Positions 2,196 to 15,390 of a DNA stretch of 32,000 nt are shown here, piece by piece. A program made the position numbers and the translations under genes. The DNA is taken from contig NZ_JAGIOS010000003.1 of assembly GCF_017876815.1 (NCBI RefSeq), positions 1,320,001 through 1,352,000 on the forward strand, written 5' to 3'. Origin of the DNA: Sinorhizobium meliloti (GTDB lineage Bacteria > Pseudomonadota > Alphaproteobacteria > Rhizobiales > Rhizobiaceae). Under the pieces are notes generated by a model. The model made no database searches. It was not told the origin of the DNA and was given only the letters and a program-made list of their open reading frames with translations. Position 1 is the stretch's first letter. The number at the start of each line of letters is the position of its first letter.

Positions 2196-2321
2196 GTGAT
2201 CCAAGCGACTAAGTAGGATCCCTTAGTGGTTCACGCGAATTTCTTTAAGTCCGCAAAAATGGCACTTTGCGCGCACATCAGATCCGCCGAGGATTTGATG
2301 CCAACTGATGGAGAAAGTCTA

Positions 2322-2555
2322 ATGGGTTCCATTGATGATTTTCGCAGCAAGCTGGCTACCGACAGCGCCTTTGCAGCGGCAGTGAAGGCCTGCTCCACCC
2401 CGGATGCGATCGTGAATGCTGCCAAGGACGCCGGTATCGACCTCAGCCACAATGATCTGGCCAAGGCGATCGCGGCGGGAAGCCCGAATCTGACGGATGA
2501 AGATCTGGAGTCGGTATCCTCCGGCACCATCATGGCCGCAGCGCTGGTCAAGTAA
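2322..2555 (+). CDS. RiPP precursor peptide, Nif11-like leader, copy 1 (77 aa)
   Basis: MGSIDDFRSKLATDSAFAAAVKACSTPDAIVNAAKDAGIDLSHNDLAKAIAAGSPNLTDEDLESVSSG/TIMAAALVK. It matches the Nif11-type leader pattern (M..eqLkaF..kv..D..l...lka..tpe.vv..Ak.aGf.l...dl......LsdEeLE.VaGG). GGAG lies 8 nt upstream of the ATG. An alternative ATG 24 nt upstream (MPTDGESL..) follows GAGGA. Confidence 0.85.
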   Translation: MGSIDDFRSKLATDSAFAAAVKACSTPDAIVNAAKDAGIDLSHNDLAKAIAAGSPNLTDEDLESVSSGTIMAAALVK

Positions 2556-2570
2556 TCAGTGTGACGGTTC

Positions 2571-2602
2571 GGCCAGGTGCGTGCGCCAAGCCGCACCTGG
2601 CC
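2571..2602 (+). promoter_or_regulatory. Stem-loop 15 nt after the precursor stop (11-bp perfect stem, 10-nt loop), copy 1
   Basis: ggccaggtgcg-tgcgccaagc-cgcacctggcc. No U-tract follows, so an attenuator or mRNA-stabilising/processing hairpin is more likely than a strong intrinsic terminator. Confidence 0.5.
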
Positions 2603-2864
2603 TCTCCAGATGAACACGCTTGCTCTAATATCTTGGAGCCCGAGCCCTCCTGCTCCTGAACGAGCTTGTCGGCACTTCAAGCGCATGTCGAGAACATGAT
2701 TTTGACGAAGCCGTTCAGCGGTCCCCGACCTGCTCGGCGTGATCGAAGCGCCTAAGTGGTATCCCTTAGTGGTTCACCCGAATTTCTTTAAGTCCGCAAA
2801 AGTGGCACTTTGCGCTCACATCAGATCCGCCGAGGATTTGATGCCAACTGATGGAGAAAGTCTA

Positions 2865-3098
2865 ATGGGTTCCATTGATGATTTTCGCAGCAAGCTGGCT
2901 ACCGACAGCGCCTTTGCAGCGGCGGTGAAAGCCTGCTCCACCCCGGATGCGATCGTGAATGCTGCCAAGGACGCCGGTATCGACCTCAGCCACAACGATC
3001 TGGCCAAGGCGATCGCGGCAGGAAGCCCGAATCTGACGGATGAAGATCTGGAGTCGGTATCCTCCGGCACCATCATGGCCGCAGCGCTGGTCAAGTAA
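2865..3098 (+). CDS. RiPP precursor peptide, Nif11-like leader, copy 2 (77 aa, identical peptide)
   Basis: Same peptide as copy 1. It differs from copy 1 at four third-codon positions only (gca/gcg, aag/aaa, aat/aac, gcg/gca). Confidence 0.85.
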   Translation: MGSIDDFRSKLATDSAFAAAVKACSTPDAIVNAAKDAGIDLSHNDLAKAIAAGSPNLTDEDLESVSSGTIMAAALVK

Positions 3099-3113
3099 TC
3101 AGTGTGACGGTTC

Positions 3114-3145
3114 GGCCAGGTGCGTGCGCCAAGCCGCACCTGGCC
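3114..3145 (+). promoter_or_regulatory. Post-precursor stem-loop, copy 2
   Basis: Identical hairpin sequence to 2571..2602. Confidence 0.5.
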
Positions 3146-3406
3146 TCTCCAGATGAACACGCTTGCTCTAATATCTTGGAGCCCGAGCCCTCCTGCTCGT
3201 GAACGAGCTTGTCGGCACTTCAAGCGCATGTCGAGAACATGATTTTGACGAAGCCGTTCAGTGGTCCCGACCTGCTCGGCGTGATCGAAGCGCCTAAGTG
3301 GTATCCCTTAGTGGTTCACCCGAATTTCTTTAAGTCCGCAAAAATGGCACTTTGCGCTCACATCAGATCCGCCGAGGATTTGATGCCAACTGATGGAGAA
3401 AGTCTA

Positions 3407-3640
3407 ATGGGTTCCATTGATGATTTTCGCAGCAAGCTGGCTACCGACAGCGCCTTTGCAGCGGCGGTGAAAGCCTGCTCCACCCCGGATGCGATCGTGA
3501 ATGCTGCCAAGGACGCCGGTATCGACCTCAGCCACAACGATCTGGCCAAGGCGATCGCGGCAGGAAGCCCGAATCTGACGGATGAAGATCTGGAGTCGGT
3601 ATCCTCCGGCACCATCATGGCCGCAGCGCTGGTCAAGTAA
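3407..3640 (+). CDS. RiPP precursor peptide, Nif11-like leader, copy 3 (77 aa, identical peptide)
   Basis: Coding sequence identical to copy 2, with the same GGAG Shine-Dalgarno. Confidence 0.85.
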   Translation: MGSIDDFRSKLATDSAFAAAVKACSTPDAIVNAAKDAGIDLSHNDLAKAIAAGSPNLTDEDLESVSSGTIMAAALVK

Positions 3641-3655
3641 TCAGTGTGACGGTTC

Positions 3656-3687
3656 GGCCAGGTGCGTGCGCCAAGCCGCACCTGGCC
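3656..3687 (+). promoter_or_regulatory. Post-precursor stem-loop, copy 3, 24 nt before the first YcaO gene
   Basis: Identical hairpin sequence. It lies between the last precursor and the enzyme genes. Confidence 0.5.
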
Positions 3688-3710
3688 TCTCCAGATGAAG
3701 GGGCACCGAC

Positions 3711-4901
3711 GTGACCACTCCCGCCATCGGCACTAGAAATCGCAGGCAAGAATCAAGAATAATGACAGCATGTAACAGTTTGGGAACTTCGATTCGCAAT
3801 GTATCCGCAAGTCATACGCTTGCCGCGATCCAGCCACTTCTCGGACGTTACGACATCAGCGGATTTGCCGATCATTCGCCAAAGGGTGCAGAAACTCTGA
3901 AGTTTATAGAGGTCGTGCGCGGCAATCCGCGTTCGGGACATCTTAATCTCGGGAAAGGCTTTAGCTTCGAGACGGCACTTGCCTCGGGATACATGGAAGC
4001 CATCGAGATGAGTACGGTTGAAGGTCCGCCCGAGATCGCGTTGCATGCGCTTCCTCGATCCGCGCTTCTTTATACCGGGGGCGGAAAGCCGCCGGAGCCG
4101 GATGCGGCGCCCATGATCCGTGGCGTTGACCTGTTGTCGGCAGAGCCGGTTTACAGCCCTGTCTATGAACATTTCCTGTCGCCTGCCCCCTCGGCGCGGT
4201 CTGTTTCCGTCAACGGCTTGGCCAGCGGAAACACGGTCGAGGAAGCCAGTTTACATTGTCTCTATGAACTGATCGAACGCGACTTGACTGCCCAATCCCT
4301 CCGCGACCCGGTGCTGGTGCAGCAGCTTCTCCTCAGCGACATTCCAGCGCCCATTTCCAACGCCCTGACGGAACTGGAAGCGTTCGGACTACACGCCGAA
4401 TTCTATCTTCTGGGGCAGTTCCTCGGCGTCACTGTGCTTCAATGTGCGCTTGTAAAAACCGGATCCGGTGGCGAGGTCTATTATGGCTGGGGCGCTCATC
4501 ACTTCCGAGCCATTGCCATTTCTCGTGCCATGACAGAAGCCGTGCAGGCCTGGTGTACGCGCGAGGCATGCAGAGCGCAGACGCTTCCTCTTTCGCGCAT
4601 GCCTGGCGGGGTCATGGTCTCTGCCGAGGTTCTGAAGCTTTTGAGGGAACCTGTTACGAAGGGCGAACGTCAGTTGCGGCGGCGCTTCATCGCCTGCCCG
4701 AGCGTTGCCTATTCGCTCACCGATCAGGATGAGCAGGCACCGGCATCGCCAACGGCTGCCCTGAACCACCTTCTCTCGTCGGCGCGGGACGCCGGCATCC
4801 GTCATGTCTTTGCCTGGACGCTATCCCCGCCAGACCGTCCATTTGCCGTCGTCAAATGTGCCGTCCCCGGATTCGAAACTCCATTTGAGGTGGACGCGTG
4901 A
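3711..4901 (+). CDS. ycaO: YcaO-domain protein 1 (396 aa)
   Basis: YcaO signatures GKGFSFETALASGYMEAIEMSTVE and NGLASGNTVEEASLHCLYELIERD. GTG start is preceded by GAAGGGG (alternative ATG at 3762). Its stop overlaps the TfuA start. Confidence 0.85.
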   Translation: MTTPAIGTRNRRQESRIMTACNSLGTSIRNVSASHTLAAIQPLLGRYDISGFADHSPKGAETLKFIEVVRGNPRSGHLNLGKGFSFETALASGYMEAIEMSTVEGPPEIALHALPRSALLYTGGGKPPEPDAAPMIRGVDLLSAEPVYSPVYEHFLSPAPSARSVSVNGLASGNTVEEASLHCLYELIERDLTAQSLRDPVLVQQLLLSDIPAPISNALTELEAFGLHAEFYLLGQFLGVTVLQCALVKTGSGGEVYYGWGAHHFRAIAISRAMTEAVQAWCTREACRAQTLPLSRMPGGVMVSAEVLKLLREPVTKGERQLRRRFIACPSVAYSLTDQDEQAPASPTAALNHLLSSARDAGIRHVFAWTLSPPDRPFAVVKCAVPGFETPFEVDA

Positions 4902-6271
4902 TGGTTGTCGAGACCAACAATGAGATTGCCGTTTTTCTGGGCCCGTCCTGCTCGATTGAAGAAGCTAAAAGCATCCTGCCGGAGGCAGATTACTTTCCGC
5001 CCGCGGCTCGTGGCTCCATCTACGGTATTATCAATGATGGATACCGGATGATCGTCCTTCTCGACGGTCTGTTCTACGGACAATATTCTGTTTGGCATAA
5101 GGAACTCCTGTTCGCCCTGGATTGCGGCATTGAAGTAATCGGCGCAACGAGCATGGGTGCCCTGCGGGCGGCCGAACTGGACTGCGAGGGCGTGACCGGT
5201 GTCGGGCAGATCTACCAGTGGTTTCGTGACGGCGAAATCGATGGCGATGACGAAGTGGCTCTGCTCCACCAGAGTTCCGAGGGAGCTTACGCGCCTCTTT
5301 CCATCCCTCTCGCCAATTTGCGTTGGAATCTGCGCCTTGCCCGAAGAGAATGTATGATCGACGAGCAGCAGGAAGCGCGGATTCTGGACCATGCAAAGGC
5401 CCTGTGTTTCCAGGACCGAATGATGGAGGTCGTGCTTTCGCCGCTGGCAAAGGAACTGGATGTTTCTGGCTTGCAAAAATGGCTTGAAACGCATGGAGAG
5501 GATCTAAAAAAAAGGGATTGCTTAGAAGCGTTGCACTTTGCCGCCAGCCGGATCGCGACCCTTGGCCCCGCGCAGCCTCCCCGTCTTCGCGCCTATGAGA
5601 CGGTGCATACGCTGATCGGCATCGAGTATTTCAAGCACGAGCGGTTGAATGCCATCTGCGCAAAACGGCAAGGCAAGGCCATGCCGCTCTCGCAGTACAC
5701 CGAGCGAGTTGCCGTGGGAGATCCCTCCTATCGTAGCTATCTGCGCGCTCGCGCTTGCCAGCGCCTTATCAATGGCTGGGCTCGGGAACTTCACCTCGAA
5801 ATCACCCCGGCGCCCATTCTGCCCCAATGGTTACCCAATCGGTTTGACCTCGCTCACCGCAGGGCAACCGGCCTGACGCTAATCGACATTGCACGTGAGG
5901 GACGGGAAGCCGCCTTCACCGCAGGCGTCATCGGATCTCTCTCATCACCCGGCAGCCGCAGCCTCGTCTCCGATATTGACCGGCAACTGGCAGAGGCAGG
6001 TTTCTCGGCATGGGGCGCGGGAGCCGAAATCACACATTTGGATGGCCGCCTTGTTTATACGCTTCGTCGCCTGGGGCGCGAAAAGGGCATTTTGCCGGAC
6101 GAGAATGAAGATGCAGATACCGCCGAAGCGGCGCTCCACTACCTTGAATGGGTCTATCGCACCGGCTTGCAGCACTTCGGCTACACATTTGACGCGGCAA
6201 CCGAAATCCTCCTGGCACACCAATTTGCCGATCGACTTGACGACATTCTCGGATTGAGGGCTGCATCATGA
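4898..6271 (+). CDS. tfuA: TfuA-like protein with about 240-aa C-terminal extension (457 aa)
   Basis: The N-terminal 200 aa carry the TfuA pattern: IAVFLGPSCS..A..ILP.A.YFPPAARGSIY..., LLDGLFYGQYSVWHKELLFALDCGIEVIGATSMGALRAAEL, GVGQIYQWFRDGEIDGDDEVAL. GTG 4898 / ATG 4901 overlap the YcaO1 stop (4899-4901). ATGA overlap with YcaO2 at 6268-6271. Confidence 0.85.
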   Translation: MMVVETNNEIAVFLGPSCSIEEAKSILPEADYFPPAARGSIYGIINDGYRMIVLLDGLFYGQYSVWHKELLFALDCGIEVIGATSMGALRAAELDCEGVTGVGQIYQWFRDGEIDGDDEVALLHQSSEGAYAPLSIPLANLRWNLRLARRECMIDEQQEARILDHAKALCFQDRMMEVVLSPLAKELDVSGLQKWLETHGEDLKKRDCLEALHFAASRIATLGPAQPPRLRAYETVHTLIGIEYFKHERLNAICAKRQGKAMPLSQYTERVAVGDPSYRSYLRARACQRLINGWARELHLEITPAPILPQWLPNRFDLAHRRATGLTLIDIAREGREAAFTAGVIGSLSSPGSRSLVSDIDRQLAEAGFSAWGAGAEITHLDGRLVYTLRRLGREKGILPDENEDADTAEAALHYLEWVYRTGLQHFGYTFDAATEILLAHQFADRLDDILGLRAAS

Positions 6272-7485
6272 ATGCTGTTGAGGAATACTCACAAGGAACC
6301 CAGCGCACCTATAATCCGGAAGAGACATTGCGGAGAATTGCGCCAGCGATGCGCACCTGCGGCATCAGCCGCGTTCTCGACGTCACCCATCTCGATCGAA
6401 TCGGCATCCCCACCTACAATGCCGTGCGCCCCAATGGAATGATCTTGTCCGTGTCCAATGGGAAAGGGTGGACGAAGGCCGCCGCATCCGTATCCGCAAT
6501 CATGGAGTCGATCGAGGTCGAGCACGCCGAATATCCGGATACCTCGGCCTGGCATCTGGCTCAAAGCGCGAAGGTACTGCGAAACCGGGGATATTCGGTC
6601 GTCGATGCGCCAACGCTCATCAGCGAGTGCCTCTGGCCCTCCGATACCTATGGCGGTCTCTACTACTCAGATGATCTTCGCCTCGATTGGGTCGAGGGAC
6701 GCGAGATCATCGAGTCTCGGCCAGTCCTGCTGCCGGCCAGCACCATCTATGTACGCGCGCCTTACGTGCATTATTTCACCAGCAATGGATTGGCGAGCGG
6801 CAACACCTGGGAAGAAGCAACGCTTCACGGCATCTGCGAGTTGATCGAACGCGATTCCACGGCGCGTCTCCTCGGTCGTCCCGAGGGCATGACCACATCA
6901 CGGTTGCTTCGGATCGAGCCAAAATCGATGCCTGAACATCTCGGGCACTTCTCGGAGAAAGTGGCGCAGGCCGGAATAGAGCTTTTCATGTTCGCTCTTC
7001 CGAGTGCCATCGATATCCATACATTCTGGGCTGTGTTCCATTGCCCGGGCGAGCCCAGTTTCATGCTGGCCACCTCGGCGGGCTTCGGGTGCCATACATC
7101 GCCGCAGATCGCCGCGTCTCGCGCCCTGACCGAAGCTGCCCAGTCGCGCCTGACCTATATTCACGGGGCGCGGGAGGATCTGGGGATAGACCACGTCAAT
7201 CGTCAACTGACCTGCGCGGAGACAGAAGCGCGATTGGCCTTGCAGGCGCGGACATTTGCCAAGTTTCGGCAGATCCCGACCGTCACCTGGGATGAACTTC
7301 TGGCCGTGGCGCCACATCGTGCCCGCGGGCGTACGATCCCGGAAAGCCTCTCCATGGTGCTGAGAATGTTGAAGGAGGCCGGACACGGTCAGGTCTATGT
7401 CCACGATCTGACGAAGCGCGGTCTAGACCTGGCCGTGACGAAGGCCTTCGTGCCGGGGCTCAAGGTCAGCGCGAAGATGATTTGA
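6268..7485 (+). CDS. ycaO: YcaO-domain protein 2 (405 aa)
   Basis: Canonical YcaO N-terminus (GISRVLDVTHLDRIGIPTYNAVRPNG..SVSNGKGWTKAAASVSAIMESIEVEHAE) and NGLASGNTWEEATLHGICELIERD. No Pro-rich azoline-type C-terminal tail. Confidence 0.9.
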   Translation: MNAVEEYSQGTQRTYNPEETLRRIAPAMRTCGISRVLDVTHLDRIGIPTYNAVRPNGMILSVSNGKGWTKAAASVSAIMESIEVEHAEYPDTSAWHLAQSAKVLRNRGYSVVDAPTLISECLWPSDTYGGLYYSDDLRLDWVEGREIIESRPVLLPASTIYVRAPYVHYFTSNGLASGNTWEEATLHGICELIERDSTARLLGRPEGMTTSRLLRIEPKSMPEHLGHFSEKVAQAGIELFMFALPSAIDIHTFWAVFHCPGEPSFMLATSAGFGCHTSPQIAASRALTEAAQSRLTYIHGAREDLGIDHVNRQLTCAETEARLALQARTFAKFRQIPTVTWDELLAVAPHRARGRTIPESLSMVLRMLKEAGHGQVYVHDLTKRGLDLAVTKAFVPGLKVSAKMI

Positions 7486-7529: not shown

Positions 7530-8507
7530 ATGGAGACGACCCGCATGACCCTGGAGACAGCATCGCCCGTGCAACCGAATAGCCATCCCGGCACGCCCTT
7601 TGGTGAGATGTGGCGCGTAGCGGAACAGAACCCAGCTTATTCCCTTCTGGAAGTGCTCGATTCCATTGATCGAGACGTGTGGGACATGGAAATGCCGAGC
7701 GCCGATCAACGCGGCGTCTACGCCCGGGTGAACGGTCAGGCGGCTCTGCACCGGTTGCGGGAGGCGATGAACGGCATGGAGGCGGAGTATCCGCTCGATG
7801 CCCCGCCGCGACGCCGCCAATGGCTCGCCTCGGGTTGCTTCATGCGTGTCGAGGCGGTGCTTGATGCCTCACAGGTCCGTGAACTGGCGGGGCACTGCGA
7901 CCATCTGCTGCATACGCCCGGAATGCGCCCTGTCCGCCTGTTTGAAAACCCGCATATTCTCTCGGAAGAAGCCATAGTCGCCATAGCCCGAACTGCGCTT
8001 GCGGCTCTCCCACAGGCTTTGCCGTGCTCGGCGAGACCTGCTCTTCTGAAGAGACGAACGCTCTTGCGCCGGACTTTCCCACGGGCACAGCTTCCCGATG
8101 CGCACGGCAACGCCAATAATCAGTTTTGGCATCAGGACAGCAATCAGAAGTTCAACGATGCACCCATGATCACGCTTTGGATTCCGCTGGAGGATGGCGT
8201 TGGAAGAACCTGCCCCGGTATGGAAGTTATCGATGCGCCGGTTTCCTACTTCTCCATTTTGCATGGGGATAGTTCCCAAACCATCTGCCCAATTCTGTGC
8301 GACATGTTTCCCGGCACCCAAATTACGTCGCTGGAAGCAGCTGCTGGAGATTGCGTCATGTTCAACGGCCTTACATTCCACCAGACCGCGACAAATCCTG
8401 AGATGCGGCAGCATCGGGATGCGCTTTTGATCCGCATCATCGAGGCGGCAGATGCGGCCCATTTTGGTCCTGATGGGGCAGCTGATGGGATCGTTCCACT
8501 TGTCTAG
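7530..8507 (+). CDS. PhyH-family Fe(II)/2-oxoglutarate dioxygenase-like protein (325 aa)
   Basis: FWHQDS (HxD facial-triad motif typical of phytanoyl-CoA dioxygenase relatives) and distal LTFHQTA. An alternative ATG at 7545 has GGAG 9 nt upstream. Confidence 0.65.
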   Translation: METTRMTLETASPVQPNSHPGTPFGEMWRVAEQNPAYSLLEVLDSIDRDVWDMEMPSADQRGVYARVNGQAALHRLREAMNGMEAEYPLDAPPRRRQWLASGCFMRVEAVLDASQVRELAGHCDHLLHTPGMRPVRLFENPHILSEEAIVAIARTALAALPQALPCSARPALLKRRTLLRRTFPRAQLPDAHGNANNQFWHQDSNQKFNDAPMITLWIPLEDGVGRTCPGMEVIDAPVSYFSILHGDSSQTICPILCDMFPGTQITSLEAAAGDCVMFNGLTFHQTATNPEMRQHRDALLIRIIEAADAAHFGPDGAADGIVPLV

Positions 8508-9363
8508 CCTCGCCGTCCGCATCATAGGCGCCGGTGCAGTGGGAATGGCGTGCGGCTACCTGCTGCAACGGCGCGGGCATAAGCCACTGCATGTCAGTAT
8601 GCGTGGAGCGCCCTTGCGTGAACTGCCAGTTGCCATGCAAGGCACGGCACGCGGTCGATACCGCCCCGAAGCTGCGACACATGCTTCCCCGACGGATATA
8701 ACGCTCTTTGCTGTCGGGCCGCACGAAGTGGCCGGTGCATTGGCAACATGGGGTCAACCTGATGGGCGAAACCTTGTGTTCTGCGCTCATCCAGAACCGC
8801 AAGAAGGCGCCGTCATGGTCTTTCCGCAGATTTCGGCAGAGATTTGCCCAATGCGCGGACTTGGCATTGTGACGAGCGGCGCTGTGGAGATCTGCAACAA
8901 GTCGCAGCCTCATGCCCCTGGCCTTCTGCTGAAATTGGGCTTCAGGCTGGTACGCATGGTGACGCGGGCTCATTTTGCAGGTCGCGCCCTGCAAACGGCG
9001 GCATCTTATGTTGTGCTTCTCGCCCTCTCCCGTGGTGAGATGACCCGCGATCAGGTCTCACAGGTCTTGCTGATCGACATCATGCGGTTGCTGATGGAGG
9101 CCATGAGAGGGGCCGAAATTGCGGTCCAACTGCCGGATGGCTGTTCCCGCGCCTTCGCTGAACTGGCTTTACACATCTGCGCGCCCACTTCCGCCGAAAA
9201 TGATGTTCTCTCGCAAAACCTGGAAGCGCTGATGGCAACACCACAGCGCAAATTGCGCGGCCACCTTGCCCTCTACGAAGCGCCATGGCGGCGGCATGGT
9301 CCGGCCTCCGACGGGCTTGCGGCACGCCTGATCGATTTCGCGACATCTAAGCCCGTCCTCTAA
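8485..9363 (+). CDS. NAD(P)-binding Rossmann-fold oxidoreductase, possibly ketopantoate-reductase-like (about 292 aa)
   Basis: N-terminal VRIIGAGAVGMACGYLLQRRGH (GxGxxG) right after the start. The ORF opens at 8452 and overlaps the dioxygenase stop. ATGs at 8473/8485 or TTG near 8499 are possible starts. Family assignment beyond the dinucleotide fold is weak. Confidence 0.55.
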   Translation: MGSFHLSSLAVRIIGAGAVGMACGYLLQRRGHKPLHVSMRGAPLRELPVAMQGTARGRYRPEAATHASPTDITLFAVGPHEVAGALATWGQPDGRNLVFCAHPEPQEGAVMVFPQISAEICPMRGLGIVTSGAVEICNKSQPHAPGLLLKLGFRLVRMVTRAHFAGRALQTAASYVVLLALSRGEMTRDQVSQVLLIDIMRLLMEAMRGAEIAVQLPDGCSRAFAELALHICAPTSAENDVLSQNLEALMATPQRKLRGHLALYEAPWRRHGPASDGLAARLIDFATSKPVL

Positions 9364-9400
9364 TGAACTGTCCTCGCCCATGCGCAAGAAAGGAAATTCC

Positions 9401-9679
9401 ATGCAACAACTGACAGTGATCGTCCCACCCTCGATCCGGCCCTATGTCGGGGGTCAATCGCGCATCACAGTTGAGGCCCAAACCGTGCGCGAGGCGCTGG
9501 GCGCCATGTCCGCCAAATCCGCGCAATTGAAGGAGCATTTGTTCGACACGAAAGGCGAGATCAATCGCTTTGTTCGGATTTTTGTCAACGGACGGCCCGT
9601 GCCGCTCGGATCGCGCGGCGATGAAGCCGTCGAAAACGGCGCGGAGATAGCGGTCGTGTTGGCGCTGGCTGGAGGTTGA
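9401..9679 (+). CDS. ThiS/MoaD-family ubiquitin-like sulfur carrier protein (92 aa, C-terminal Gly-Gly)
   Basis: MQQLTVIVPPSIRPYVGG...VNGRPV....EAVENGAEIAVVLALAGG-stop. Size, beta-grasp-like pattern and terminal GG fit the family. AAGGAA lies 6 nt upstream of ATG 9401. Confidence 0.8.
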   Translation: MQQLTVIVPPSIRPYVGGQSRITVEAQTVREALGAMSAKSAQLKEHLFDTKGEINRFVRIFVNGRPVPLGSRGDEAVENGAEIAVVLALAGG

Positions 9680-9683
9680 GGGC

Positions 9684-10826
9684 ATGCTCAGGCAGGAACG
9701 TCTATCACGTCTACGGGAATCCTTGTCTCGGATCAGTGTCGAGGAGGCAAGACGGAAGCAAAAGGCTGGCGTCAAACTGATCGATATTCGTGACGCCGAA
9801 GAAACCGCCAAAGGCAGCCCTGTCGGCGCGGTACGCATCAGCCGATCCTTTCTGGAATTGCAGATTGAAAACGTGGCGCCGGATGCCGATACCGAGCTTA
9901 TGGTACTCTGCGCCAGCGATGCGCGCGCGCTGTTTGCCGCAGACGATCTCAACCGCCTCGGCTATTCTTCCGTTCATTGGGTCGATGGCGGATTTCAAGC
10001 CTGGGAGGCAGCCGGTCTTCCCGTTGAAAAACACCGACAGCTGAGCGCAGCGGAGAAGGAGCGATACGCGCGCCATTTGAGCATACCCGAAGTGGGGGCT
10101 GAGGGTCAGGCGCTGCTTCTGTCCAAGAAGGTGGCTCTGGTCGGTGCTGGAGGCCTTGGCTCTCCGCTGGCCTTTTATCTTGCGGCAGCAGGCATTGGAA
10201 CATTGGGGCTGATTGACAGCGACCGGCTCGAACGGTCGAATCTTCAGCGGCAAATCCTCCATACCGACGACCGGATCGGGGAGTTGAAGGTCAGTTCGGC
10301 CGCAAAATCTCTTCAGGCGTTCAATCCGGACGTAGCTCTCAATCTCCATGAGATACGGTTGAACGAGAACAATGCACTGGAAATACTGGCCGATTACGAT
10401 CTGGTGATCGACGGCAGCGACAATCTGGCGACCCGCTACGTCGTGAGCGACGCCAGCACGCTGCTTAATATTCCCATGATTTATGGCGCGATCTTCCGTT
10501 TCGAGGGACACGTTTCCGCATTTTGGCCCAATGGCCCGTCCGGTGGCCCGTGCTATCGCTGTCTCTTTCCTGAAAAGCTGCCCGCATCGCTCACTCCATC
10601 CTGCTCCGAGGTCGGTGTGCTTGGCGTGTTACCGGGCGTCATCGGGACGATCATGGCAACGGAAGCGATCAAGATCCTGCTCGGAATCGGCGATCCGCTG
10701 ATTGGGCGTTTGCTGACCTACAATGCCCTCGATTGCTCTTTCCACGACCTCGAGGTCCCCGCGAACCCCCATTGCGAGCAGTGCCAATCCAACCGGGATC
10801 TGCCACGCATGCGCGCCGGGTTGTGA
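9684..10826 (+). CDS. Rhodanese-ThiF/MoeB fusion (E1-like adenylyltransferase/sulfurtransferase, 380 aa)
   Basis: Residues about 1-115 form a rhodanese domain with an active-site loop Cys (MVLCASDARALFAADDLNRLGYSSVHWVDGGFQAWEAAG). The rest is canonical MoeB/ThiF: RYARHLSIPEVGAEGQ, VGAGGLGSPLAFYLAAAGIG, DSDRLERSNLQRQILH, DGSDNLATRY, CYRC...CEQC zinc motifs. GGAGG lies 9 nt upstream. Confidence 0.9.
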   Translation: MLRQERLSRLRESLSRISVEEARRKQKAGVKLIDIRDAEETAKGSPVGAVRISRSFLELQIENVAPDADTELMVLCASDARALFAADDLNRLGYSSVHWVDGGFQAWEAAGLPVEKHRQLSAAEKERYARHLSIPEVGAEGQALLLSKKVALVGAGGLGSPLAFYLAAAGIGTLGLIDSDRLERSNLQRQILHTDDRIGELKVSSAAKSLQAFNPDVALNLHEIRLNENNALEILADYDLVIDGSDNLATRYVVSDASTLLNIPMIYGAIFRFEGHVSAFWPNGPSGGPCYRCLFPEKLPASLTPSCSEVGVLGVLPGVIGTIMATEAIKILLGIGDPLIGRLLTYNALDCSFHDLEVPANPHCEQCQSNRDLPRMRAGL

Positions 10827-10846: not shown

Positions 10847-11467
10847 ATGCTGCAAGCCTTCCGGTTTGGTGAAAGCGACCGGGACCATGTGTCCCGATTG
10901 CTGCATTGGGCGGACTTTCCCAACAGTGCACGTATTGTGGACCTCGGCGCTGGCAGCGGCGGGGTCGCGGCCCATATGGCGGCTTTGCGTCCGGATTTAC
11001 GTTTCTGTCTGGTCGATCTGGATGAAACGAAACTGGCGGCCAGTTCATTCGAAAAACACATTGCAAATATAACGCAAGTCCCAGAACCCGATGGTGCATT
11101 CGACGCGGCGATTTGCTGTTACGCAATGGGTTATGCGCCTTCGGATGCGCTATGGTCGGAGATTTCACGCCTTCTGCGACCGGGTGGCACTGTTTTTATC
11201 GTGGATATGGTGCCCAAGGATGCCACGATCCCGAAGCTTAGCCTGTTCGGCTATGAGATACGGAGCCGTGGGATGGTCGAGGAAGCGGCGCAATCTGTTG
11301 GTTTGATACCGGATGTCTATATCGAGCCGTATGATTCCGGCGATTGGGGCCGGTCCGTCTTTTCGGATGCTTTCGATGTATTCTTCGGCGATCTGCGGCC
11401 CGCCATCTGGTGCTGGCGCGCGCCCGAAACCAAGACCGTCGCTCACCCCTCGACCACCCAAGCGTGA
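10847..11467 (+). CDS. Class I SAM-dependent methyltransferase (about 206 aa)
   Basis: Motif I IVDLGAGSGGVAAHMA, post-I LVDLDE, motif II FDAAICCYAMGY, motif III LLRPGGTVFIVD. An alternative GTG at 10823 forms a GTGA overlap with the E1 stop. Confidence 0.8.
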   Translation: MLQAFRFGESDRDHVSRLLHWADFPNSARIVDLGAGSGGVAAHMAALRPDLRFCLVDLDETKLAASSFEKHIANITQVPEPDGAFDAAICCYAMGYAPSDALWSEISRLLRPGGTVFIVDMVPKDATIPKLSLFGYEIRSRGMVEEAAQSVGLIPDVYIEPYDSGDWGRSVFSDAFDVFFGDLRPAIWCWRAPETKTVAHPSTTQA

Positions 11468-12468: not shown

Positions 12469-15390
12469 TCAATGGCCTATGGTCGGAAGAAGACCAGCAG
12501 AGATGATAAGGTCGCGAGCCGCGTTGGACCGCTCGTCCCGGATCTGTGCGAACCCTATACCAGCAACGCCAGTGAACAGACCGAGATGGCGTGGATCGCA
12601 GTACTTCTGGGTGTCTGAAGAGCATGGCAAATTGCCAGTTGCCTGTGCTGATGACGCGCAGGCCATCTCGACGCCGGCGGTGCCGCTGTGGATACCGGCT
12701 CCTTGGTTAGGCAGGGACGCCAATCCGATCACCCCGCGCCGGATTGCAGCATCCGCATTCGCTCGCCATTCTTGGTCATGACGCAGGCACAGGCATGTGA
12801 TGATGTGACCTGCAATGCCGCAACTCCATTCAGAACCGGCGCGAGGGCCGAAGCGCCAGAAGGCTTCCGAGCTGTGTTGAAGCAGGGATTGAACCGAAGC
12901 GCGAATGTTTGCGTTCCCTGATACATGCGCAAACTGACTGAGCGCAGCCAATACACCAAAAGCACCTTGCGCAAAGCCAGACGGTGCCGTTTCCGCCTCT
13001 CTGCTGGTCCAGTCGGCCAGACGGCAGGCAACCATCTCGGCCTGAGTGTCCGCTGTGTCGGAATTCACGAGTAGGAGCGGACCCAGCAAGCCCGCATATC
13101 CGGACCAGACATCCCAAGGCTTATCTTCGAGCAAGGCCCGATCGAGAACTGCAACCAACTGCTGCATGGCGTGCGGGATTCGATCGGCCATTATGCTAAG
13201 CCTCTGCAGTGCCGACAATGCCAGAAGCTGTCCGCCGCTGCCACGCAACCCGATGGGCAGGTCTCGCCACCACCGCAGGCGCTCAGCCGGTGTTCCGCTC
13301 TCCGCCAGCCTCAGAAGCGGCTCAGCCAAATTTTCTGCAATATGGCAGGCCTCTGGTCTTCCGGTCGCTGCAAGATAGACGGCAAGACCAAGTGTGCCGC
13401 TCACGAGCGACATTCCAAGCGGCTGGTAGCAGAACCGGATACCATCCGGCGCGAGATCGAATCCGATCCAGCCATCTGATCGACGCCTGATTTCCGATAA
13501 AAGCTGGTCTGTCGGATTGGTGATCGGTTGGAGGCTGTTCTCGCAACTCCGCCCGTGCTGCGCGAGCCGCAATGCCTTGGCCGATGCCAAAGCGTCTATT
13601 GTTTCGATCTCACGCTCGATCCTTTCGCAGGACAATGCCTCTATTCGCTCCCGGCTTGCCGCCAAGCCACTCGTCTCGAAATAGTCATCGATTCGTTGAT
13701 CGCCGGTCAGGTTCAGGGCCGTTTGCGAGACCGTGTGCGTGAATACGGGAATATCCAGTTGGCGCATTTGCAGCTTTTCAGAGGCGCATAGGCTTGAAAC
13801 GTCCTGACGATCTGCAAGCGGCGCAAAAAGGCGCTCCAGCGGATAAAGAACGTCTGCTTGGGACTGCTCGCTTCGCAATGCTTCCGCCGTCAACTGACGG
13901 CGTGCAAGCGCCGCATAGATCCGTGTCGCGCGAATGACAGCGCGCCCCTTGCAGCCGTTGAAGGCCTGCAACAGGCCATCTTCCCCCAGCCAAACGGGTT
14001 TGTTGGCGATGATGGACCTGCACTGCGCATGGAATCCGGCCATGAAGAGCTTACGATGACGGAAAAATGGATTCTTCCTGTCTGACGTTACGGGCAATGA
14101 TTGCGTGCGAACGAGCTCCCCGATCATGACGGTGCGGGCCATGTTATCCGTATTGATGGAGTGCCAGCCGGGAATTTGCCTTGGCCATTCCTGAGGCTCG
14201 ATGCCGAAAGCGCTCGTATCGACGGCATCGCGTGCGAGGCCCAGTAAGGTCCAGGCTGGAAATAGCTCGGTTCGTGCAACGGTGGTGTCGAACCAAGACC
14301 ATGCCGTCTGGGCCGCACCCAGGCTGTCCCCCGGCCGTGGACGGCGAATTGCTGGCTTCTCGAAGGGCGTCAAAAGCGTTTCGGCGTCTATAACATATAG
14401 ATGGCTGTGATGCGCCACGAGGTTTTCGTGGTGACCATCCGTGTAACCTAAAACATGCAGGAGAGCGGCCAGTCTGCCGGCACTGCGATAGAATGCCTGC
14501 AGTACATCTTCGTTGTCGCAGGGCGCGCCCTCAACAAATTCCATATAGCCATAGTCTTCTGCGCACCAGATTTTCAGCCCGGGAAGAGGTGAAAGACCGA
14601 TGCTAGCGCGCGGATCCGCCAGCAAATTCTGGAACGCCGCCTCGAGGGCGAGGTTACGGGGCTTGTAGACGAGTTTTGTCTGCCGCCCCTGCCAAGTGAA
14701 TTCCAGCAGCACGACGCTCCGTCCACCCTTATGGGTATCGCCGACAGCAAATTGCATGCCGGAAAGCGCCGCGTCTTCAGGAAGGCGGAAGTTTTGAGCG
14801 ATTGCTGTCCGATCCGCCTCGAGGCGGGCTAAAAGCTCGCGAAGATTTCTGATCCAGACTGCAATTGTGAAAGGAATCAAGCGTCGAAGGACCGGAAAGC
14901 GATCCAGCAGTTCCGCCAGATGTGTCTGCCGCAGTTCGTCTGTCAAGCGATCATAGATCTCGCATTTCGCGGCGCTCGGGTCTTTCTCCGGGGCTAATGC
15001 GGCGATGACGGACGCGCCAGCGCCACGCCGCTCTTCAAGTATTTGCTGAAGTGCATCTGCCCCCAACGCGCAAAGGCGCTCTGTCAGCGCTACAATCAGT
15101 TGCCCGATGACGGTTGGCGCCAACGCGGCTTGCGGCAGAAGCCCCATTGCGACTTCGGCCAGAGGAAACCACAGGTGAACAAAAGGCAGCTCTTTCGCAA
15201 GGCAAGGCGTTCGCGAAATGTCTTGCCTCGCCGCGAAGCATAAACCCGAGAGAAACGCATCTCCGGAACCGGCTTTCTCACGAGGCGCGCCTGTATTGCC
15301 CACCGGATCGGCAAGCTCGTCCACCAATGGCCAAAGGGCTACTATCGCCGTATTGTCTCGTGCCTCTTTTCGGATGTTTGCGTCGATCAT
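12469..15390 (-). CDS. lanM: LanM-like class II lanthipeptide synthetase (973 aa) with degenerate LanC-type cyclase motifs
   Basis: Dehydratase (DUF4135-type) signatures GDTHKGGRSVVLLEFTWQGRQTKLVYKPRNL and YGYMEFV...FYRSAGRLAALLHVLGYTDGHHENLVAHHSHLYVIDAETLL. The C-terminal repeats are LanC-like, but GFAQGAFG replaces G-x-A-H-G, EWSCGIAG replaces W-C-x-G, and GIHSGTAG (12673-12696) replaces C-H-G. Start moved to ATG 15390 (GGGAGG 9 nt upstream) rather than the track's 15441. Confidence 0.85.
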   Translation of the reverse strand: MIDANIRKEARDNTAIVALWPLVDELADPVGNTGAPREKAGSGDAFLSGLCFAARQDISRTPCLAKELPFVHLWFPLAEVAMGLLPQAALAPTVIGQLIVALTERLCALGADALQQILEERRGAGASVIAALAPEKDPSAAKCEIYDRLTDELRQTHLAELLDRFPVLRRLIPFTIAVWIRNLRELLARLEADRTAIAQNFRLPEDAALSGMQFAVGDTHKGGRSVVLLEFTWQGRQTKLVYKPRNLALEAAFQNLLADPRASIGLSPLPGLKIWCAEDYGYMEFVEGAPCDNEDVLQAFYRSAGRLAALLHVLGYTDGHHENLVAHHSHLYVIDAETLLTPFEKPAIRRPRPGDSLGAAQTAWSWFDTTVARTELFPAWTLLGLARDAVDTSAFGIEPQEWPRQIPGWHSINTDNMARTVMIGELVRTQSLPVTSDRKNPFFRHRKLFMAGFHAQCRSIIANKPVWLGEDGLLQAFNGCKGRAVIRATRIYAALARRQLTAEALRSEQSQADVLYPLERLFAPLADRQDVSSLCASEKLQMRQLDIPVFTHTVSQTALNLTGDQRIDDYFETSGLAASRERIEALSCERIEREIETIDALASAKALRLAQHGRSCENSLQPITNPTDQLLSEIRRRSDGWIGFDLAPDGIRFCYQPLGMSLVSGTLGLAVYLAATGRPEACHIAENLAEPLLRLAESGTPAERLRWWRDLPIGLRGSGGQLLALSALQRLSIMADRIPHAMQQLVAVLDRALLEDKPWDVWSGYAGLLGPLLLVNSDTADTQAEMVACRLADWTSREAETAPSGFAQGAFGVLAALSQFAHVSGNANIRASVQSLLQHSSEAFWRFGPRAGSEWSCGIAGHIITCLCLRHDQEWRANADAAIRRGVIGLASLPNQGAGIHSGTAGVEMACASSAQATGNLPCSSDTQKYCDPRHLGLFTGVAGIGFAQIRDERSNAARDLIISAGLLPTIGH

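What the first reader, a model, noticed from the sequence alone, without database searches (positions are those of the whole stretch)
3407..3640. Cys-free 9-aa core TIMAAALVK resembles the thioamidated segment of thioamitide cores
By analogy with Nif11 leaders ending ..LSDEELEAVAGG, the leader here ends ..LTDEDLESVSSG, which leaves TIMAAALVK. As I recall, thioviridamide-type cores begin S-V-M-A-A-A-A, where the N-terminal Ser is dehydrated to a pyruvyl cap and the V-M-A-A-A stretch carries the thioamides. T-I-M-A-A-A-L has the same pattern with Thr for Ser. The macrocycle-forming Thr/His/Cys tail of thioamitides is absent. Predicted product: a short linear polythioamide with an N-terminal Dhb that would hydrolyse to 2-oxobutyryl after leader removal.
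Basis: partly seen in the sequence, partly recalled or inferred. Interest (0 to 1): 0.85.

Follow-up and report, generated by a model that had tools for sequence, protein, structure and literature searches.

The report
Thioamitide-like capped thiopeptide precursor, rhizobial plasmid
A short gene, present in three identical copies on a Sinorhizobium symbiosis megaplasmid, encodes the precursor of an uncharacterised modified peptide whose 9-residue business end closely mimics the sulfur-substituted segment of the anticancer thioamitides, and it sits in a conserved gene cluster that could plausibly build such a molecule.

Summary
Window 3407-3640 encodes a 77-aa Nif11-leader peptide ending ...LESVSSG|TIMAAALVK. 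It is the third of three tandem copies that encode the same peptide. Published thioamitide precursors read ...QG|SVMAAAA..., so the recalled motif is real and the shared junction is G|[ST][VIP]MAAA. Twelve further relatives give a family core consensus of T-V-M-A-A-A-L-(I/V)-K. Selection acts mainly on the core. A fixed gene set travels with the precursor in varying gene orders. It comprises a long TfuA followed by a YcaO, a second YcaO, an iron/2-oxoglutarate (PhyH-type) oxygenase, a ketopantoate-reductase-like protein, a methyltransferase, a LanM and usually a C1A cysteine protease. The rhizobial branch also carries ThiS and rhodanese-MoeB. The LanM here keeps its dehydratase motifs but has lost the zinc site of its cyclase, which fits a core with no cysteine. 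The most likely product is a linear, thioamidated, N-terminally 2-oxobutyryl (or 2-hydroxybutyryl) capped nonapeptide. It is not a thioamitide. The leaders are unrelated, the thioviridamide precursor model does not match, and the AviCys tail and its enzymes are absent. No characterisation was found in the literature searched. The chemistry itself remains untested.

The parts
2322..2555 (+). Precursor gene, copy 1 (77 aa, peptide identical to copy 3)
   Evidence: It differs from copies 2 and 3 by four synonymous substitutions.
2865..3098 (+). Precursor gene, copy 2 (peptide identical)
3407..3640 (+). Precursor gene, copy 3 (the finding). Nif11 leader is residues 1-68; predicted core is T69-K77, TIMAAALVK.
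   Evidence: TIGR03798 scores 69.7 bits and the end of the model falls on G68.
3656..3687 (+). GC-rich hairpin just after the precursor stop codon. It is repeated after every copy (about 2571-2602 and 3114-3145). It has no T-tract.
   Evidence: dG -30.5 kcal/mol, z -3.8, 0 of 200 shuffles fold as well. (conserved in all three copies). (not called as an intrinsic terminator).
3711..4901 (+). YcaO1, a divergent YcaO paralogue (396 aa)
   Evidence: PF02624, 4e-38. (best solved match is the M. kandleri thioglycine YcaO). (25% identical to YcaO2). (conserved across the family). The GKG...ExxE and NGLASGN...ELIERD motifs are present (sequence).
4898..6271 (+). TfuA with a family-specific C-terminal domain of about 230 aa, fold unknown
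   Evidence: PF07812 9e-40; NF033432 188 bits. (the C-terminal domain is conserved in 8 orthologs). (no Pfam match; model unusable).
6268..7485 (+). YcaO2, whose gene directly follows (in the window overlaps) tfuA in every family member
   Evidence: (best solved match is MJ1094, a thioglycine-type YcaO, 5e-31). (TfuA followed by YcaO2 in all loci).
7530..8507 (+). PhyH-type Fe(II)/2-oxoglutarate oxygenase (probable start 7545)
   Evidence: PF05721, 24.4 bits, cutoff 22. (H201-x-D203...H284 invariant in 6 orthologs).
8452..9363 (+). Rossmann protein resembling 2-dehydropantoate 2-reductase. It is always adjacent to the oxygenase gene.
   Evidence: GxGxxG. (profile against PDB: 3hwr, E 1.8e-4 over the full length, plus other ketopantoate reductases). 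(adjacent pair in all loci). (fused to ThiS in R. leguminosarum).
9380..9679 (+). ThiS/MoaD-type sulfur carrier ending in -GG (probable start 9401)
   Evidence: PF02597, 4.8e-8.
9684..10826 (+). Rhodanese-MoeB/ThiF adenylyltransferase/sulfurtransferase
   Evidence: NF006444, 557.7 bits; rhodanese plus ThiF domains.
10847..11467 (+). Class I SAM-dependent methyltransferase (Methyltransf_11/25)
   Evidence: The start is set by the R. leguminosarum ortholog..
12469..15390 (-). LanM with an intact dehydratase domain and a cyclase domain without zinc ligands
   Evidence: TIGR03897, 453 bits. (dehydratase motifs invariant). (alignment register fixed with CylM, a B. thuringiensis LanM and a Nodularia LanM: GxxHG becomes GFAQG, WCxG becomes WSCG, C[HC]G becomes IHSG).
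15495..16682 (+). C1A papain-type cysteine protease with an extra N-terminal beta-rich domain. It is transcribed divergently from lanM.
   Evidence: (Q165, C171, H322, N353 invariant). (model pLDDT 82.6). (best fold matches are xylellain, Lpg2622 and cathepsins).

Best explanation
The ORF is one of three identical copies of the precursor for a conserved, uncharacterised family of modified peptides.

**Shown**
- The peptide has a Nif11-type leader (residues 1-68) and a strongly conserved C-terminal core, TIMAAALVK.
- The same gene set accompanies the precursor in every relative.

**Inferred pathway**
1. ThiS is adenylated and thiocarboxylated by the rhodanese-MoeB enzyme.
2. TfuA releases the sulfur for the YcaO enzymes. 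The invariant TfuA-YcaO2 pair probably acts with help from the paralogue YcaO1. The YcaOs ATP-activate backbone amides in the hydrophobic I-M-A-A-A-L-V stretch and convert one or several into thioamides.
3. The LanM acts only as a dehydratase, because its cyclase zinc site is gone. It converts the invariant Thr69 to dehydrobutyrine.
4. The C1A cysteine protease cuts after Gly68.
5. The exposed enamine hydrolyses spontaneously to an N-terminal 2-oxobutyryl cap. The ketopantoate-reductase-like enzyme may reduce this cap to 2-hydroxybutyryl.
6. The PhyH-type oxygenase and the methyltransferase add further decorations. The nearly invariant C-terminal Lys is an obvious candidate site.

The expected product is a short, linear, capped thioamidated peptide. 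It works like the N-terminal half of a thioamitide but is built on a different leader and dehydratase chassis.
For: **Precursor and core**
- Anatomy and core boundary.
- Twelve further distinct cores were found. Thr1, Ala4 and Leu7 are invariant in the 10 nine-residue cores, and Lys9 is present in 9 of 10.
- Window versus L003: the core has 6 synonymous and 1 conservative change in 9 codons, while the leader has 28 synonymous and 24 non-synonymous.

**Gene set**
- The gene set is constant although gene order is shuffled and host G+C ranges from 42 to 71%.

**Thioamidation**
- Both YcaOs are closest to thioglycine-forming YcaOs.
- TfuA is present.
- ThiS and rhodanese-MoeB lie in the cluster. 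ThiS thiocarboxylate plus TfuA is the established sulfur route (PMC13063428).

**Dehydration**
- LanM dehydratase motifs are invariant. The zinc ligands and the catalytic His are lost in the rhizobial branch and in L008. They are retained, in the ProcM-like CCG form, in relatives L010 and L014.

**Cleavage and cap**
- The C1A catalytic residues are invariant, and the model has a papain fold.
- C1A proteases remove the leaders of thioamitides and polytheonamide.
- A TsaA S1T mutant yields an N-terminal 2-oxobutyryl group.
- The C1 plus LanM pair recurs as a module in a Nodularia NHLP cluster.

**Resemblance to thioamitides**
- The junction G|[ST][VIP]MAAA is shared. The Pro2 variant also occurs in both families: Mastigocladus SPMAAA and L008 TPMAAALIK.
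- Thioamitide clusters use the same Pfam families: PF05721, PF13649 and C1A.

**Reductase**
- A profile of the reductase-like protein matches ketopantoate reductases over its full length.
- ElxO and TaaRed reduce N-terminal pyruvyl caps.
Against: - No chemistry has been observed. The number and position of thioamides are unknown.
- Thioamitide clusters have one YcaO and this family has two. The second could do something else.
- MAAA is not invariant in the family. Met can be Leu or Ile, and Ala can be Leu, Ile or Thr. One member (P0009) has Gly instead of Thr at +1.
- Residue -1 is Asp rather than Gly in two members.
- The C1A gene is not next to the cluster in R. leguminosarum ATCC 14479 or in L008.
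- ThiS and MoeB are not seen in L013 and L014.
- The reductase assignment is weak (E 1.8e-4). Its fusion to ThiS in R. leguminosarum hints at another role.
- Precursors and leaders show no significant similarity to thioamitide precursors.
- No exporter or immunity gene was identified in the window.
Confidence: 0.6

Rival explanations
1. The peptide is a thioamidated RiPP, but LanM and the C1 protease do not act as a cap-forming pair on Thr69. One YcaO might instead make a methyloxazoline from Thr69 or an N-terminal amidine. The mature N-terminus would then not be 2-oxobutyryl.
For: - There are two YcaO paralogues but one TfuA.
- YcaO enzymes are known to make azolines and amidines as well as thioamides (established knowledge).
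- YcaO1 is divergent, scoring 131.9 bits against 222.4 for YcaO2 on PF02624.
Against: - Both YcaOs are closest to thioamide-forming enzymes.
- No azoline dehydrogenase or E1-like or Ocin-ThiF partner was seen. The only ThiF-family protein is a rhodanese-MoeB enzyme next to ThiS.
- LanM co-occurs with the precursor throughout the family, and Thr1 is the only hydroxyl residue in the core and is invariant.
Confidence: 0.15
2. LanM and the C1 protease are a separate, decaying lanthipeptide module that merely sits beside the YcaO/TfuA cluster. The product would be a thioamidated peptice released by other proteases, with an ordinary Thr N-terminus.
For: - In S. meliloti the LanM-C1 pair is inverted and separated from the methyltransferase by about 1 kb.
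- R. etli carries a truncated LanM plus C1 without the rest of the cluster.
- The cyclase domain is degenerate.
- In S. medicae plasmids the DNA match breaks after 63% of the query.
Against: - LanM lies directly downstream on the same strand in R. leguminosarum, and directly upstream of the precursor in L003.
- LanM is present in every family locus long enough to show it. C1 is present in five loci, in differing gene orders.
- Searching from C1 orthologs led back to the same clusters.
- The dehydratase half of LanM is under strong conservation while only the cyclase site decays.
Confidence: 0.1
3. The cluster is a true evolutionary offshoot of the thioamitide pathway. On this view the core and the YcaO, TfuA, oxygenase, methyltransferase and protease genes share ancestry with TvaA/H/I/J/K. 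The AviCys part was lost and the leader and dehydratase were swapped.
For: - The junction motif is shared, including the parallel Pro2 and Thr1 variants.
- The same five enzyme families occur in both.
- A thioamitide-type precursor exists in a cyanobacterium, Mastigocladus. Several distant members of this family have a low G+C content.
Against: - There is no significant similarity between the precursors outside 7 residues.
- NF033415 is not matched.
- No actinobacterial proteins appear among the 120 closest C1 relatives.
- A profile of the oxygenase finds nothing among PDB sequences.
- The enzymes could not be compared directly, because no thioamitide cluster could be fetched.
Confidence: 0.15

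Closest known systems
Thioamitides (thioviridamide, thioholgamide, thiostreptamide S4, thioalbamide)
   Same: - YcaO plus TfuA.
- A core that begins G|[ST][VIP]MAAA, the segment that carries the thioamides in thioamitides.
- Ser or Thr at +1, which gives a pyruvyl or 2-oxobutyryl cap.
- A C1A cysteine protease, a PF05721 oxygenase and a PF13649-type methyltransferase.
- A positively charged residue near the C-terminus: Lys here, bis-N-methyl-His there.

Sources.
   Different: - The leader is Nif11-type and unrelated to the thioamitide leader.
- The precursor is not matched by the thioviridamide precursor model NF033415.
- The core has no Thr8, His12 or Cys13 tail. No cysteine decarboxylase or phosphotransferase/HopA1 pair was found among the ORFs scanned.
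- Dehydration would be by a LanM.
- There are two YcaOs instead of one.
- The sulfur carrier genes lie inside the cluster.
- Hosts are Alphaproteobacteria and unidentified lower-G+C organisms, not Actinobacteria.
N-terminal keto-acyl capping in polytheonamide (PoyF/PoyH) and in the lanthipeptides Pep5 and epilancin 15X
   Same: A LanM-type dehydratase acts on a Thr or Ser at +1 after a Gly. The leader is then removed (by a C1A protease in polytheonamide) and the residue hydrolyses spontaneously to a 2-oxoacyl cap. A reductase (ElxO, TaaRed) can follow.
   Different: - The leader here is Nif11, not NHLP.
- There are no radical SAM epimerases or methyltransferases.
- The core is 9 residues long rather than about 48.
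- The candidate reductase is ketopantoate-reductase-like rather than a short-chain dehydrogenase.
Prochlorosin-type class II lanthipeptides (Nif11 leader plus ProcM-like LanM)
   Same: A Nif11 leader is paired with a LanM. In the distant family members L010 and L014 this LanM still has the ProcM-type Cys/Cys-Cys zinc motif.
   Different: - The core has no Cys, and the zinc site is lost in this window's LanM.
- The core is conserved and the leader variable, the reverse of prochlorosins.
- The cleavage site is SG or SD rather than GG, and no C39 transporter is present.
TfuA-associated YcaO clusters with Nif11-like precursors, catalogued by genome mining (Malit et al. 2021, PMC8120280)
   Same: That survey lists Rhizobium, Ruegeria, Anabaena and other genera with Nif11-like precursors in TfuA clusters, and marks MoeB as a co-located gene. 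This cluster very probably belongs to that group.
   Different: The survey gives no product. In the text read, it does not mention the thioamitide-like core, the LanM/C1A pair or the degenerate cyclase.
McrA thioglycine system (YcaO, TfuA, ThiS)
   Same: It is the closest solved and modelled relative of both YcaOs and of TfuA. The sulfur delivery logic is the same.
   Different: Scores fall below the equivalog cutoffs (214 against 365 bits; 188 against 235 bits). The substrate here is a small leader-bearing peptide rather than an enzyme subunit.

Membership tests
Nif11-leader RiPP precursor (TIGR03798 / PF07862) | Leader matches the family model above its curated cutoff | tested here: met
   TIGR03798 scores 69.7 bits against a cutoff of 32.3. 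PF07862 scores 26.6 against 23.8.
Nif11-leader RiPP precursor (TIGR03798 / PF07862) | Gly-Gly cleavage motif processed by a C39 peptidase-ABC transporter | tested here: not met
   The site is S-G. In relatives it is T-G, V-G, K-G or S/T-D. No peptidase-transporter was found among the window ORFs scanned. A C1A protease is present instead.
Thioamitide (thioviridamide family) | Precursor matches the thioviridamide-family peptide model NF033415 | tested here: not met
   An NCBIfam scan of the precursor at E<=0.01 returned only TIGR03798. Smith-Waterman with shuffles and a family HMM show no significant similarity to 8 published thioamitide precursors.
Thioamitide (thioviridamide family) | YcaO and TfuA pair in the cluster | tested here: met
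   PF02624 matches twice and PF07812 once.
Thioamitide (thioviridamide family) | Core starts with Ser/Thr followed by a V/I-M-A-A-A type segment | tested here: met
   TIMAAALVK compared with SVMAAAA... The family consensus is TVMAAAL(I/V)K.
Thioamitide (thioviridamide family) | Multiple backbone thioamides in that segment | not testable with these tools
   Needs mass spectrometry of the modified peptide.
Thioamitide (thioviridamide family) | [quoted passage not shown] | tested here: not met
   The core has no Cys and no second Ser or Thr. No flavoprotein decarboxylase, APH or HopA1 domain appeared among the ORFs scanned.
Thioamitide (thioviridamide family) | Bis-N-methylated, beta-hydroxylated His made by a PF06325 methyltransferase and a PF05721 oxygenase | tested here: not met
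   The core has no His. The methyltransferase is of the PF08241/PF13649 type, not PF06325. A PF05721 oxygenase is present.
Thioamitide (thioviridamide family) | C1A cysteine protease in the cluster | tested here: met
   PF00112 match, invariant catalytic residues and a papain fold.
Class II lanthipeptide | LanM synthetase | tested here: met
   TIGR03897 scores 453 bits against a cutoff of 304.
Class II lanthipeptide | Cys in the core and a zinc site (Cys, Cys, His or Cys) in the cyclase domain to form lanthionine | tested here: not met
   The core has no Cys. Aligned with CylM, a B. thuringiensis LanM and a Nodularia LanM, the motifs read GFAQG, WSCG and IHSG in place of GxxHG, WCxG and C(H/C)G.
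Keto-acyl capped RiPPs (PoyF/PoyH-type logic) | Dehydratase plus C1A protease, with Thr or Ser at +1 after a small residue | tested here: met
   The LanM dehydratase motifs are intact. A C1A protease is present. The junction is G68|T69, and Thr is invariant in the nine-residue cores.
Keto-acyl capped RiPPs (PoyF/PoyH-type logic) | An N-terminal 2-oxoacyl group is actually formed | not testable with these tools
   Needs product analysis. The precedent is the TsaA S1T mutant, which gives 2-oxobutyryl.

The most novel reading that the evidence does not exclude
This could be the founding member of a distinct RiPP class. The product would be a minimal, linear, keto- or hydroxy-acyl-capped polythioamide nonapeptide made by a hybrid pathway of Nif11 leader, LanM, C1A protease and two YcaOs with TfuA. 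On this reading it arrived independently at the thioamidated V-M-A-A-A pharmacophore of the thioamitides, which are mitochondrial F1Fo-ATP synthase inhibitors. It is carried on the symbiosis megaplasmids of rhizobia and in unrelated lower-G+C bacteria. The second YcaO, the TfuA C-terminal domain and the oxygenase/reductase pair would carry out chemistry not yet described.
Probability: 0.35. Interest if true: 0.75.

Novelty: new variant of a known kind. Interest (0 to 1): 0.62.

Why it matters
- **Scope of thioamitide-like chemistry.** Thioamitides are potent, selective antitumour leads. All characterised examples are actinobacterial and structurally complex. A nine-residue linear analogue carrying only the thioamidated segment and the cap would show which part of the scaffold the YcaO/TfuA pair recognises. 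It would also give a minimal substrate for engineering polythioamides.
- **Experimental access.** The cluster is in genetically tractable model rhizobia (S. meliloti, R. leguminosarum), so the prediction is directly testable.
- **Sulfur delivery.** The cluster brings its own ThiS and MoeB, which could ease heterologous thioamidation in hosts that lack a suitable sulfur donor.
- **Enzyme evolution.** The family records a lanthionine synthetase being reduced to a dehydratase. Different members keep or lose the cyclase zinc site.
- **Ecology.** The location on symbiosis plasmids raises the question of a role in rhizosphere competition or in nodules.

Tried and rejected
**Attempts that led nowhere**
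- Fetching real thioamitide clusters. I scanned genome contigs with the back-translated pattern TCNGTNATGGCNGCNGCNGCN. The enzymes could therefore not be compared directly with TvaH/I/J/K.
- Homolog search with the TfuA C-terminal domain. It returned nothing.
- Pfam scan of its 8 orthologs. It returned nothing.
- Structure prediction of the TfuA C-terminal domain. The single-sequence model had pLDDT 39 and was not used.
- Profile of the PhyH-like protein against PDB sequences. No hit, even at E<=10.
- Metagenome scan with the TfuA C-terminal domain. Only three further loci were found.
- Fold search of the C1 protease. It confirmed the papain fold but gave no match for the N-terminal beta-rich domain.
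- Literature searches for the core strings and for combinations of Nif11, TfuA, LanM, Rhizobium and Sinorhizobium. No characterisation was found.

**Readings rejected**
- A lanthipeptide. There is no Cys in the core and no zinc site in the cyclase.
- A bona fide thioamitide. The defining tail and its enzymes are absent.
- A chance ORF. It matches a curated HMM, is conserved at peptide level across 42-71% G+C hosts, and differs between copies only by synonymous changes.
- Cys24 of the leader as a lanthionine partner. It is a common Nif11-leader residue and is absent in P0008 and P0013.
Full report
**1. The observation**

Window 3407-3640 (+) is an ATG-to-TAA ORF of 77 codons. It has a GGAG ribosome-binding site 8 nt upstream. 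The peptide matches the Nif11 leader family above the curated cutoffs: TIGR03798 at 69.7 bits against 32.3, and PF07862 at 26.6 against 23.8.

The TIGR03798 alignment runs from residue 3 to residue 68 and reaches the last position of the model. The canonical Gly-Gly therefore corresponds to S67-G68. The remainder, T69-K77, is TIMAAALVK, which has no cysteine.

The copies encode the same peptide and differ by four synonymous substitutions. Each copy is followed by the same GC-rich hairpin (dG -30.5 kcal/mol, z -3.8).

**2. Source**

The window is 100% identical to a 1.6-Mb megaplasmid of Sinorhizobium meliloti RU11/001. The same region occurs on megaplasmids of S. meliloti SM11, S. medicae and S. 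kummerowiae. At about 91% DNA identity it also occurs on conjugative plasmids of Rhizobium leguminosarum, R. johnstonii, R. beringeri and R. ruizarguesonis. IS fragments flank it.

**3. The gene neighbourhood**

Downstream of the three precursor genes, on the same strand, lie:
- a divergent YcaO (YcaO1, 3711-4901);
- a TfuA with a C-terminal extension of about 230 aa (4898-6271);
- a second YcaO (YcaO2, 6268-7485);
- a PhyH-type oxygenase (7530-8507);
- a Rossmann protein (8452-9363);
- a ThiS-like carrier ending in GG (9380-9679);
- a rhodanese-MoeB enzyme (9684-10826);
- a class I methyltransferase (10847-11467).

Then comes a divergent pair, LanM (12469-15390, minus strand) and a C1 papain-type protease (15495-16682).

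**4. Do LanM and the protease belong to the cluster?**

I treated this as a real question, for two reasons. The DNA match to Rhizobium plasmids stops after the methyltransferase. R. etli also carries only a truncated LanM plus C1 beside IS elements and nod genes.

The evidence says they do belong:
- In R. leguminosarum ATCC 14479, LanM follows the methyltransferase directly on the same strand.
- In a 346-kb metagenome contig whose precursor is only 68% identical (L003), the pair C1 and LanM sits immediately upstream of the precursor, and the other nine genes follow.

**5. A family emerges**

A profile search of 1.84 billion representative proteins with the three closest precursors found further members. 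Starting instead from orthologs of the C1 protease led to two more.

I built local profile HMMs from the orthologs and used them to tabulate gene content across 15 loci. Wherever enough sequence is visible, the constant set is:
- the precursor;
- the long TfuA, immediately followed by YcaO2;
- YcaO1;
- an adjacent and often overlapping oxygenase/Rossmann-protein pair;
- the methyltransferase;
- LanM.

The C1 protease is seen in five loci. ThiS and rhodanese-MoeB are seen only in the rhizobial-type branch. Gene order is shuffled between members. Locus G+C ranges from 42 to 71%, so the cluster has moved between very different hosts while keeping its content.

**6. The cores**

The family cores found so far are:
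- TIMAAALVK
- TVMAAALVK
- TVMAAALIK
- TPMAAALIK
- TVLAAALIK
- TVMALALIK (found twice)
- TVLAALLVK
- TPLAALLIN
- GVILAAALIK
- TPMAITLAVK
- TPMVVTTVIK
- TVIPTLMQVTIAIK

Among the ten distinct nine-residue cores:

| Position | Residues |
|---|---|
| 1 | T in 10/10 |
| 2 | V, I or P |
| 3 | M in 7, L in 3 |
| 4 | A in 10/10 |
| 5 | A or L |
| 6 | A or L |
| 7 | L in 10/10 |
| 8 | I or V |
| 9 | K in 9/10 |

Selection acts on the peptide and mainly on the core. Between the window and L003 the nine core codons carry six synonymous changes and one conservative change. The 68 leader codons carry 28 synonymous and 24 non-synonymous changes. This is the opposite of the usual Nif11/prochlorosin pattern.

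**7. The comparison with thioamitides**

A review gives SVMAAAASIALHC and SVMAAAATVAFHC. The supplementary table of Eyles et al. (PMC8153245) gives full precursors:
- ...ISPDEEAQG|SVMAAAASIALHC (TvaA)
- ...QG|SVMAAAATVAFHC
- ...QG|SVMAAIATVAYHC (TsaA)
- ...SQG|SPMAAAVSIAYHC (the cyanobacterium Mastigocladus)
- ...VQG|TFVSVVVTPATHC (Micromonospora eburnea)
- ...VQQ|SVIGFAVTIAVHC (Amycolatopsis alba)

The shared element is therefore G|[ST][VIP]MAAA. The two families also show the same kinds of variation, namely Thr for Ser at position 1 and Pro at position 2.

The motif is absent from 142 other Nif11-type precursors. Its expected frequency at a fixed position is about 3.5e-7. That gives about 3e-4 after allowing for the 797 TfuA-associated precursor families reported by Malit et al..

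The resemblance stops there:
- Smith-Waterman scores against shuffled sequences are unremarkable. Leader-only z-scores are mostly between -1.4 and 1.7, and the one higher value (3.3) did not recur with the other thioamitide precursors.
- A family HMM scores the thioamitide precursors at 0.5-4 bits.
- The curated thioviridamide precursor model NF033415 was not hit.

**8. Enzyme-level parallels with thioamitides**

According to Eyles et al.:
- thioamidation by TsaH/TsaI (YcaO/TfuA) is the first step;
- the N-terminal pyruvyl group comes from dehydrated Ser1;
- a Ser1Thr mutant yields an N-terminal 2-oxobutyryl group;
- TsaK is a C1A cysteine protease of a family described as rare in bacteria;
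- TsaJ is a PF05721 oxygenase and TsaMT a PF13649 methyltransferase;
- a reductase (TaaRed, like ElxO) can reduce the cap.

A review adds that ThoK and PoyH are the C1A leader peptidases of thioholgamide and polytheonamide.

The window contains the same families: YcaO, TfuA, PF05721 (24.4 bits), PF13649/PF08241 and C1A. It lacks everything connected with the AviCys-His macrocycle.

**9. State of the individual enzymes**

- **YcaO1 and YcaO2.** They are full-length paralogues, 25% identical. Both are closest to the archaeal thioglycine-forming YcaOs among solved structures. Both keep the GKG...ExxE and NGLASGN...ELIERD motifs. From established knowledge of YcaO enzymes, these motifs hold the ATP/Mg ligands.
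- **Sulfur supply.** ThiS and rhodanese-MoeB give the cluster a complete sulfur-carrier line. A recent paper states that thioamide-forming YcaOs outside sulfide-rich habitats use a thiocarboxylated ThiS homologue and TfuA.
- **LanM.** The dehydratase motifs (VYKPR, DGHxxN, DxETLL, RATRIY) are invariant in three orthologs. I aligned the cyclase domain with CylM, a B. thuringiensis LanM and a Nodularia ProcM-type enzyme to fix the alignment register. The motifs then read GFAQG, WSCG and IHSG in place of GxxHG, WCxG and C(H/C)G. L003 and L008 are equally degenerate. The distant members L010 and L014 still have the WC/CC...CCG arrangement. So a ProcM-like synthetase has been reduced to a dehydratase in the rhizobial branch. 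This fits a core whose only hydroxyl residue is the invariant Thr1.
- **C1 protease.** The Gln, Cys, His and Asn catalytic residues are invariant. The model is confident (pLDDT 82.6) with a papain fold closest to xylellain and Lpg2622. Its extra N-terminal beta-rich domain has no match.
- **Oxygenase.** An invariant H-x-D...H triad is present.
- **Rossmann partner.** It has GxGxxG. As a profile it matches 2-dehydropantoate 2-reductase over its full length (E 1.8e-4, with further ketopantoate reductases below). That enzyme is an alpha-keto-acid reductase, which suggests reduction of the cap. The evidence is weak. In R. leguminosarum the protein is fused in frame to ThiS, so another role is possible.

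**10. Most likely mechanism**

Shown: the anatomy, the conservation and the state of the catalytic motifs.

Inferred, in order:
1. A ThiS-borne sulfur is released by TfuA.
2. The YcaOs use it to thioamidate the hydrophobic I-M-A-A-A-L-V stretch.
3. LanM dehydrates Thr69.
4. The C1A protease cuts after Gly68.
5. The enamine hydrolyses to a 2-oxobutyryl cap, which may then be reduced.
6. The oxygenase and methyltransferase decorate the peptide, perhaps at the conserved Lys.

I put about 0.6 on this overall scheme. I put well above 0.9 on the narrower statement that this is a RiPP precursor whose core is the last nine residues.

The rivals are:
- different chemistry by one YcaO at the N-terminus;
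- an unrelated or decaying LanM/C1 module;
- true common ancestry with thioamitides rather than convergence.

I could not resolve the last point, because no thioamitide cluster could be retrieved for enzyme comparison.

**11. Known or new?**

Malit et al. 2021 list Nif11-like precursors in TfuA clusters of Rhizobium and other genera and mark MoeB as a neighbour. The cluster type has therefore been catalogued.

In the searchable literature I found no product, no mention of the core sequence, and no mention of the link to thioamitide cores or of the LanM/C1A capping pair. Papers in subscription journals are not covered by these searches.

I classify it as a new variant of a known kind. It is a thioamidated RiPP that works like the N-terminal half of a thioamitide but fails the membership tests for thioamitides and for lanthipeptides.

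**12. Verdict**

The caveats are that the resemblance is a short local motif rather than homology, and that the chemistry is still a prediction. Interest is moderate to high for natural-product biochemistry.

Noticed in passing
window 2195-3700: The precursor gene, its ribosome-binding site and its downstream hairpin are triplicated in tandem (period about 542 nt). The copies are 96-100% identical and differ only by synonymous changes. R. leguminosarum has a single copy. An IS3-type transposase fragment (1873-2199) abuts the first copy.
   Followed up: yes
L001 17025-18275 versus window 8452-9679: In R. leguminosarum the ketopantoate-reductase-like protein and ThiS form one in-frame ORF. In S. 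meliloti they are two genes in different frames. This may indicate a functional link between the reductase-like protein and the sulfur carrier.
   Followed up: partly
L015 1468-9158 (Nodularia sp. MAG): An ortholog of the long C1 protease sits with a LanM, a cupin and an acetyltransferase. They lie next to a 205-aa NHLP-type precursor ending ...ELIAGG|KLSQGAQCGIGAG..., and there is no YcaO or TfuA. The C1 plus LanM pair therefore looks like a portable module shared between RiPP clusters.
   Followed up: partly
L010 1094-4489, L014 1491-4829: The LanMs of these distant family members keep a ProcM-type zinc site (WC/CC...CCG), although their cores (TVLAAALIK, TVLAALLVK) also lack Cys. Either the loss of the cyclase site is recent, or the domain has another use there.
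   Followed up: partly
L012 1076-1270 and 2365-2601: This family member carries two different precursors with 10-residue cores, TPMVVTTVIK and TPMAITLAVK.
   Followed up: no
window 11468-12468 and 12469-16682: Compared with R. leguminosarum, the LanM-C1 segment is inverted and separated from the methyltransferase by about 1 kb of unannotated sequence. A 62-aa ORF (12129-12317, minus strand) lies just downstream of lanM. Its significance is unknown.
   Followed up: no
L002 (R. etli pRetNXC12d) 9941-12968: A truncated LanM plus an intact C1 protease, 92% identical to the window, sits beside IS66 and nodA/nodB without the YcaO/TfuA genes. It looks like a decayed remnant of the cluster on a symbiosis plasmid.
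   Followed up: partly
window 20600-22237 (-) and 20477-22921 (+): A GroEL/Cpn60 paralogue lies on the minus strand. The 814-aa ORF on the opposite strand has no family match and is probably a spurious antisense reading frame.
   Followed up: partly
window 22857-23444 (-), 26189-26827 (+), 28125-28790 (+), 29020-30222 (+), 30697-31254 (+), 18110-18586 (+): The right flank is a mosaic. It holds a DDE_3 transposase, a phage-type metallopeptidase, an IS4/5 transposase, one complete and one fragmentary cytochrome P450, and a weak SNase-like ORF. No transporter or obvious immunity gene for the peptide was found.
   Followed up: no
window 4898-6271, residues about 227-457 of TfuA: TfuA has a conserved C-terminal domain of about 230 aa, predicted to be all-helical. 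It has no Pfam match and no usable model, and it is specific to this cluster family. It is a candidate leader-binding domain.
   Followed up: partly
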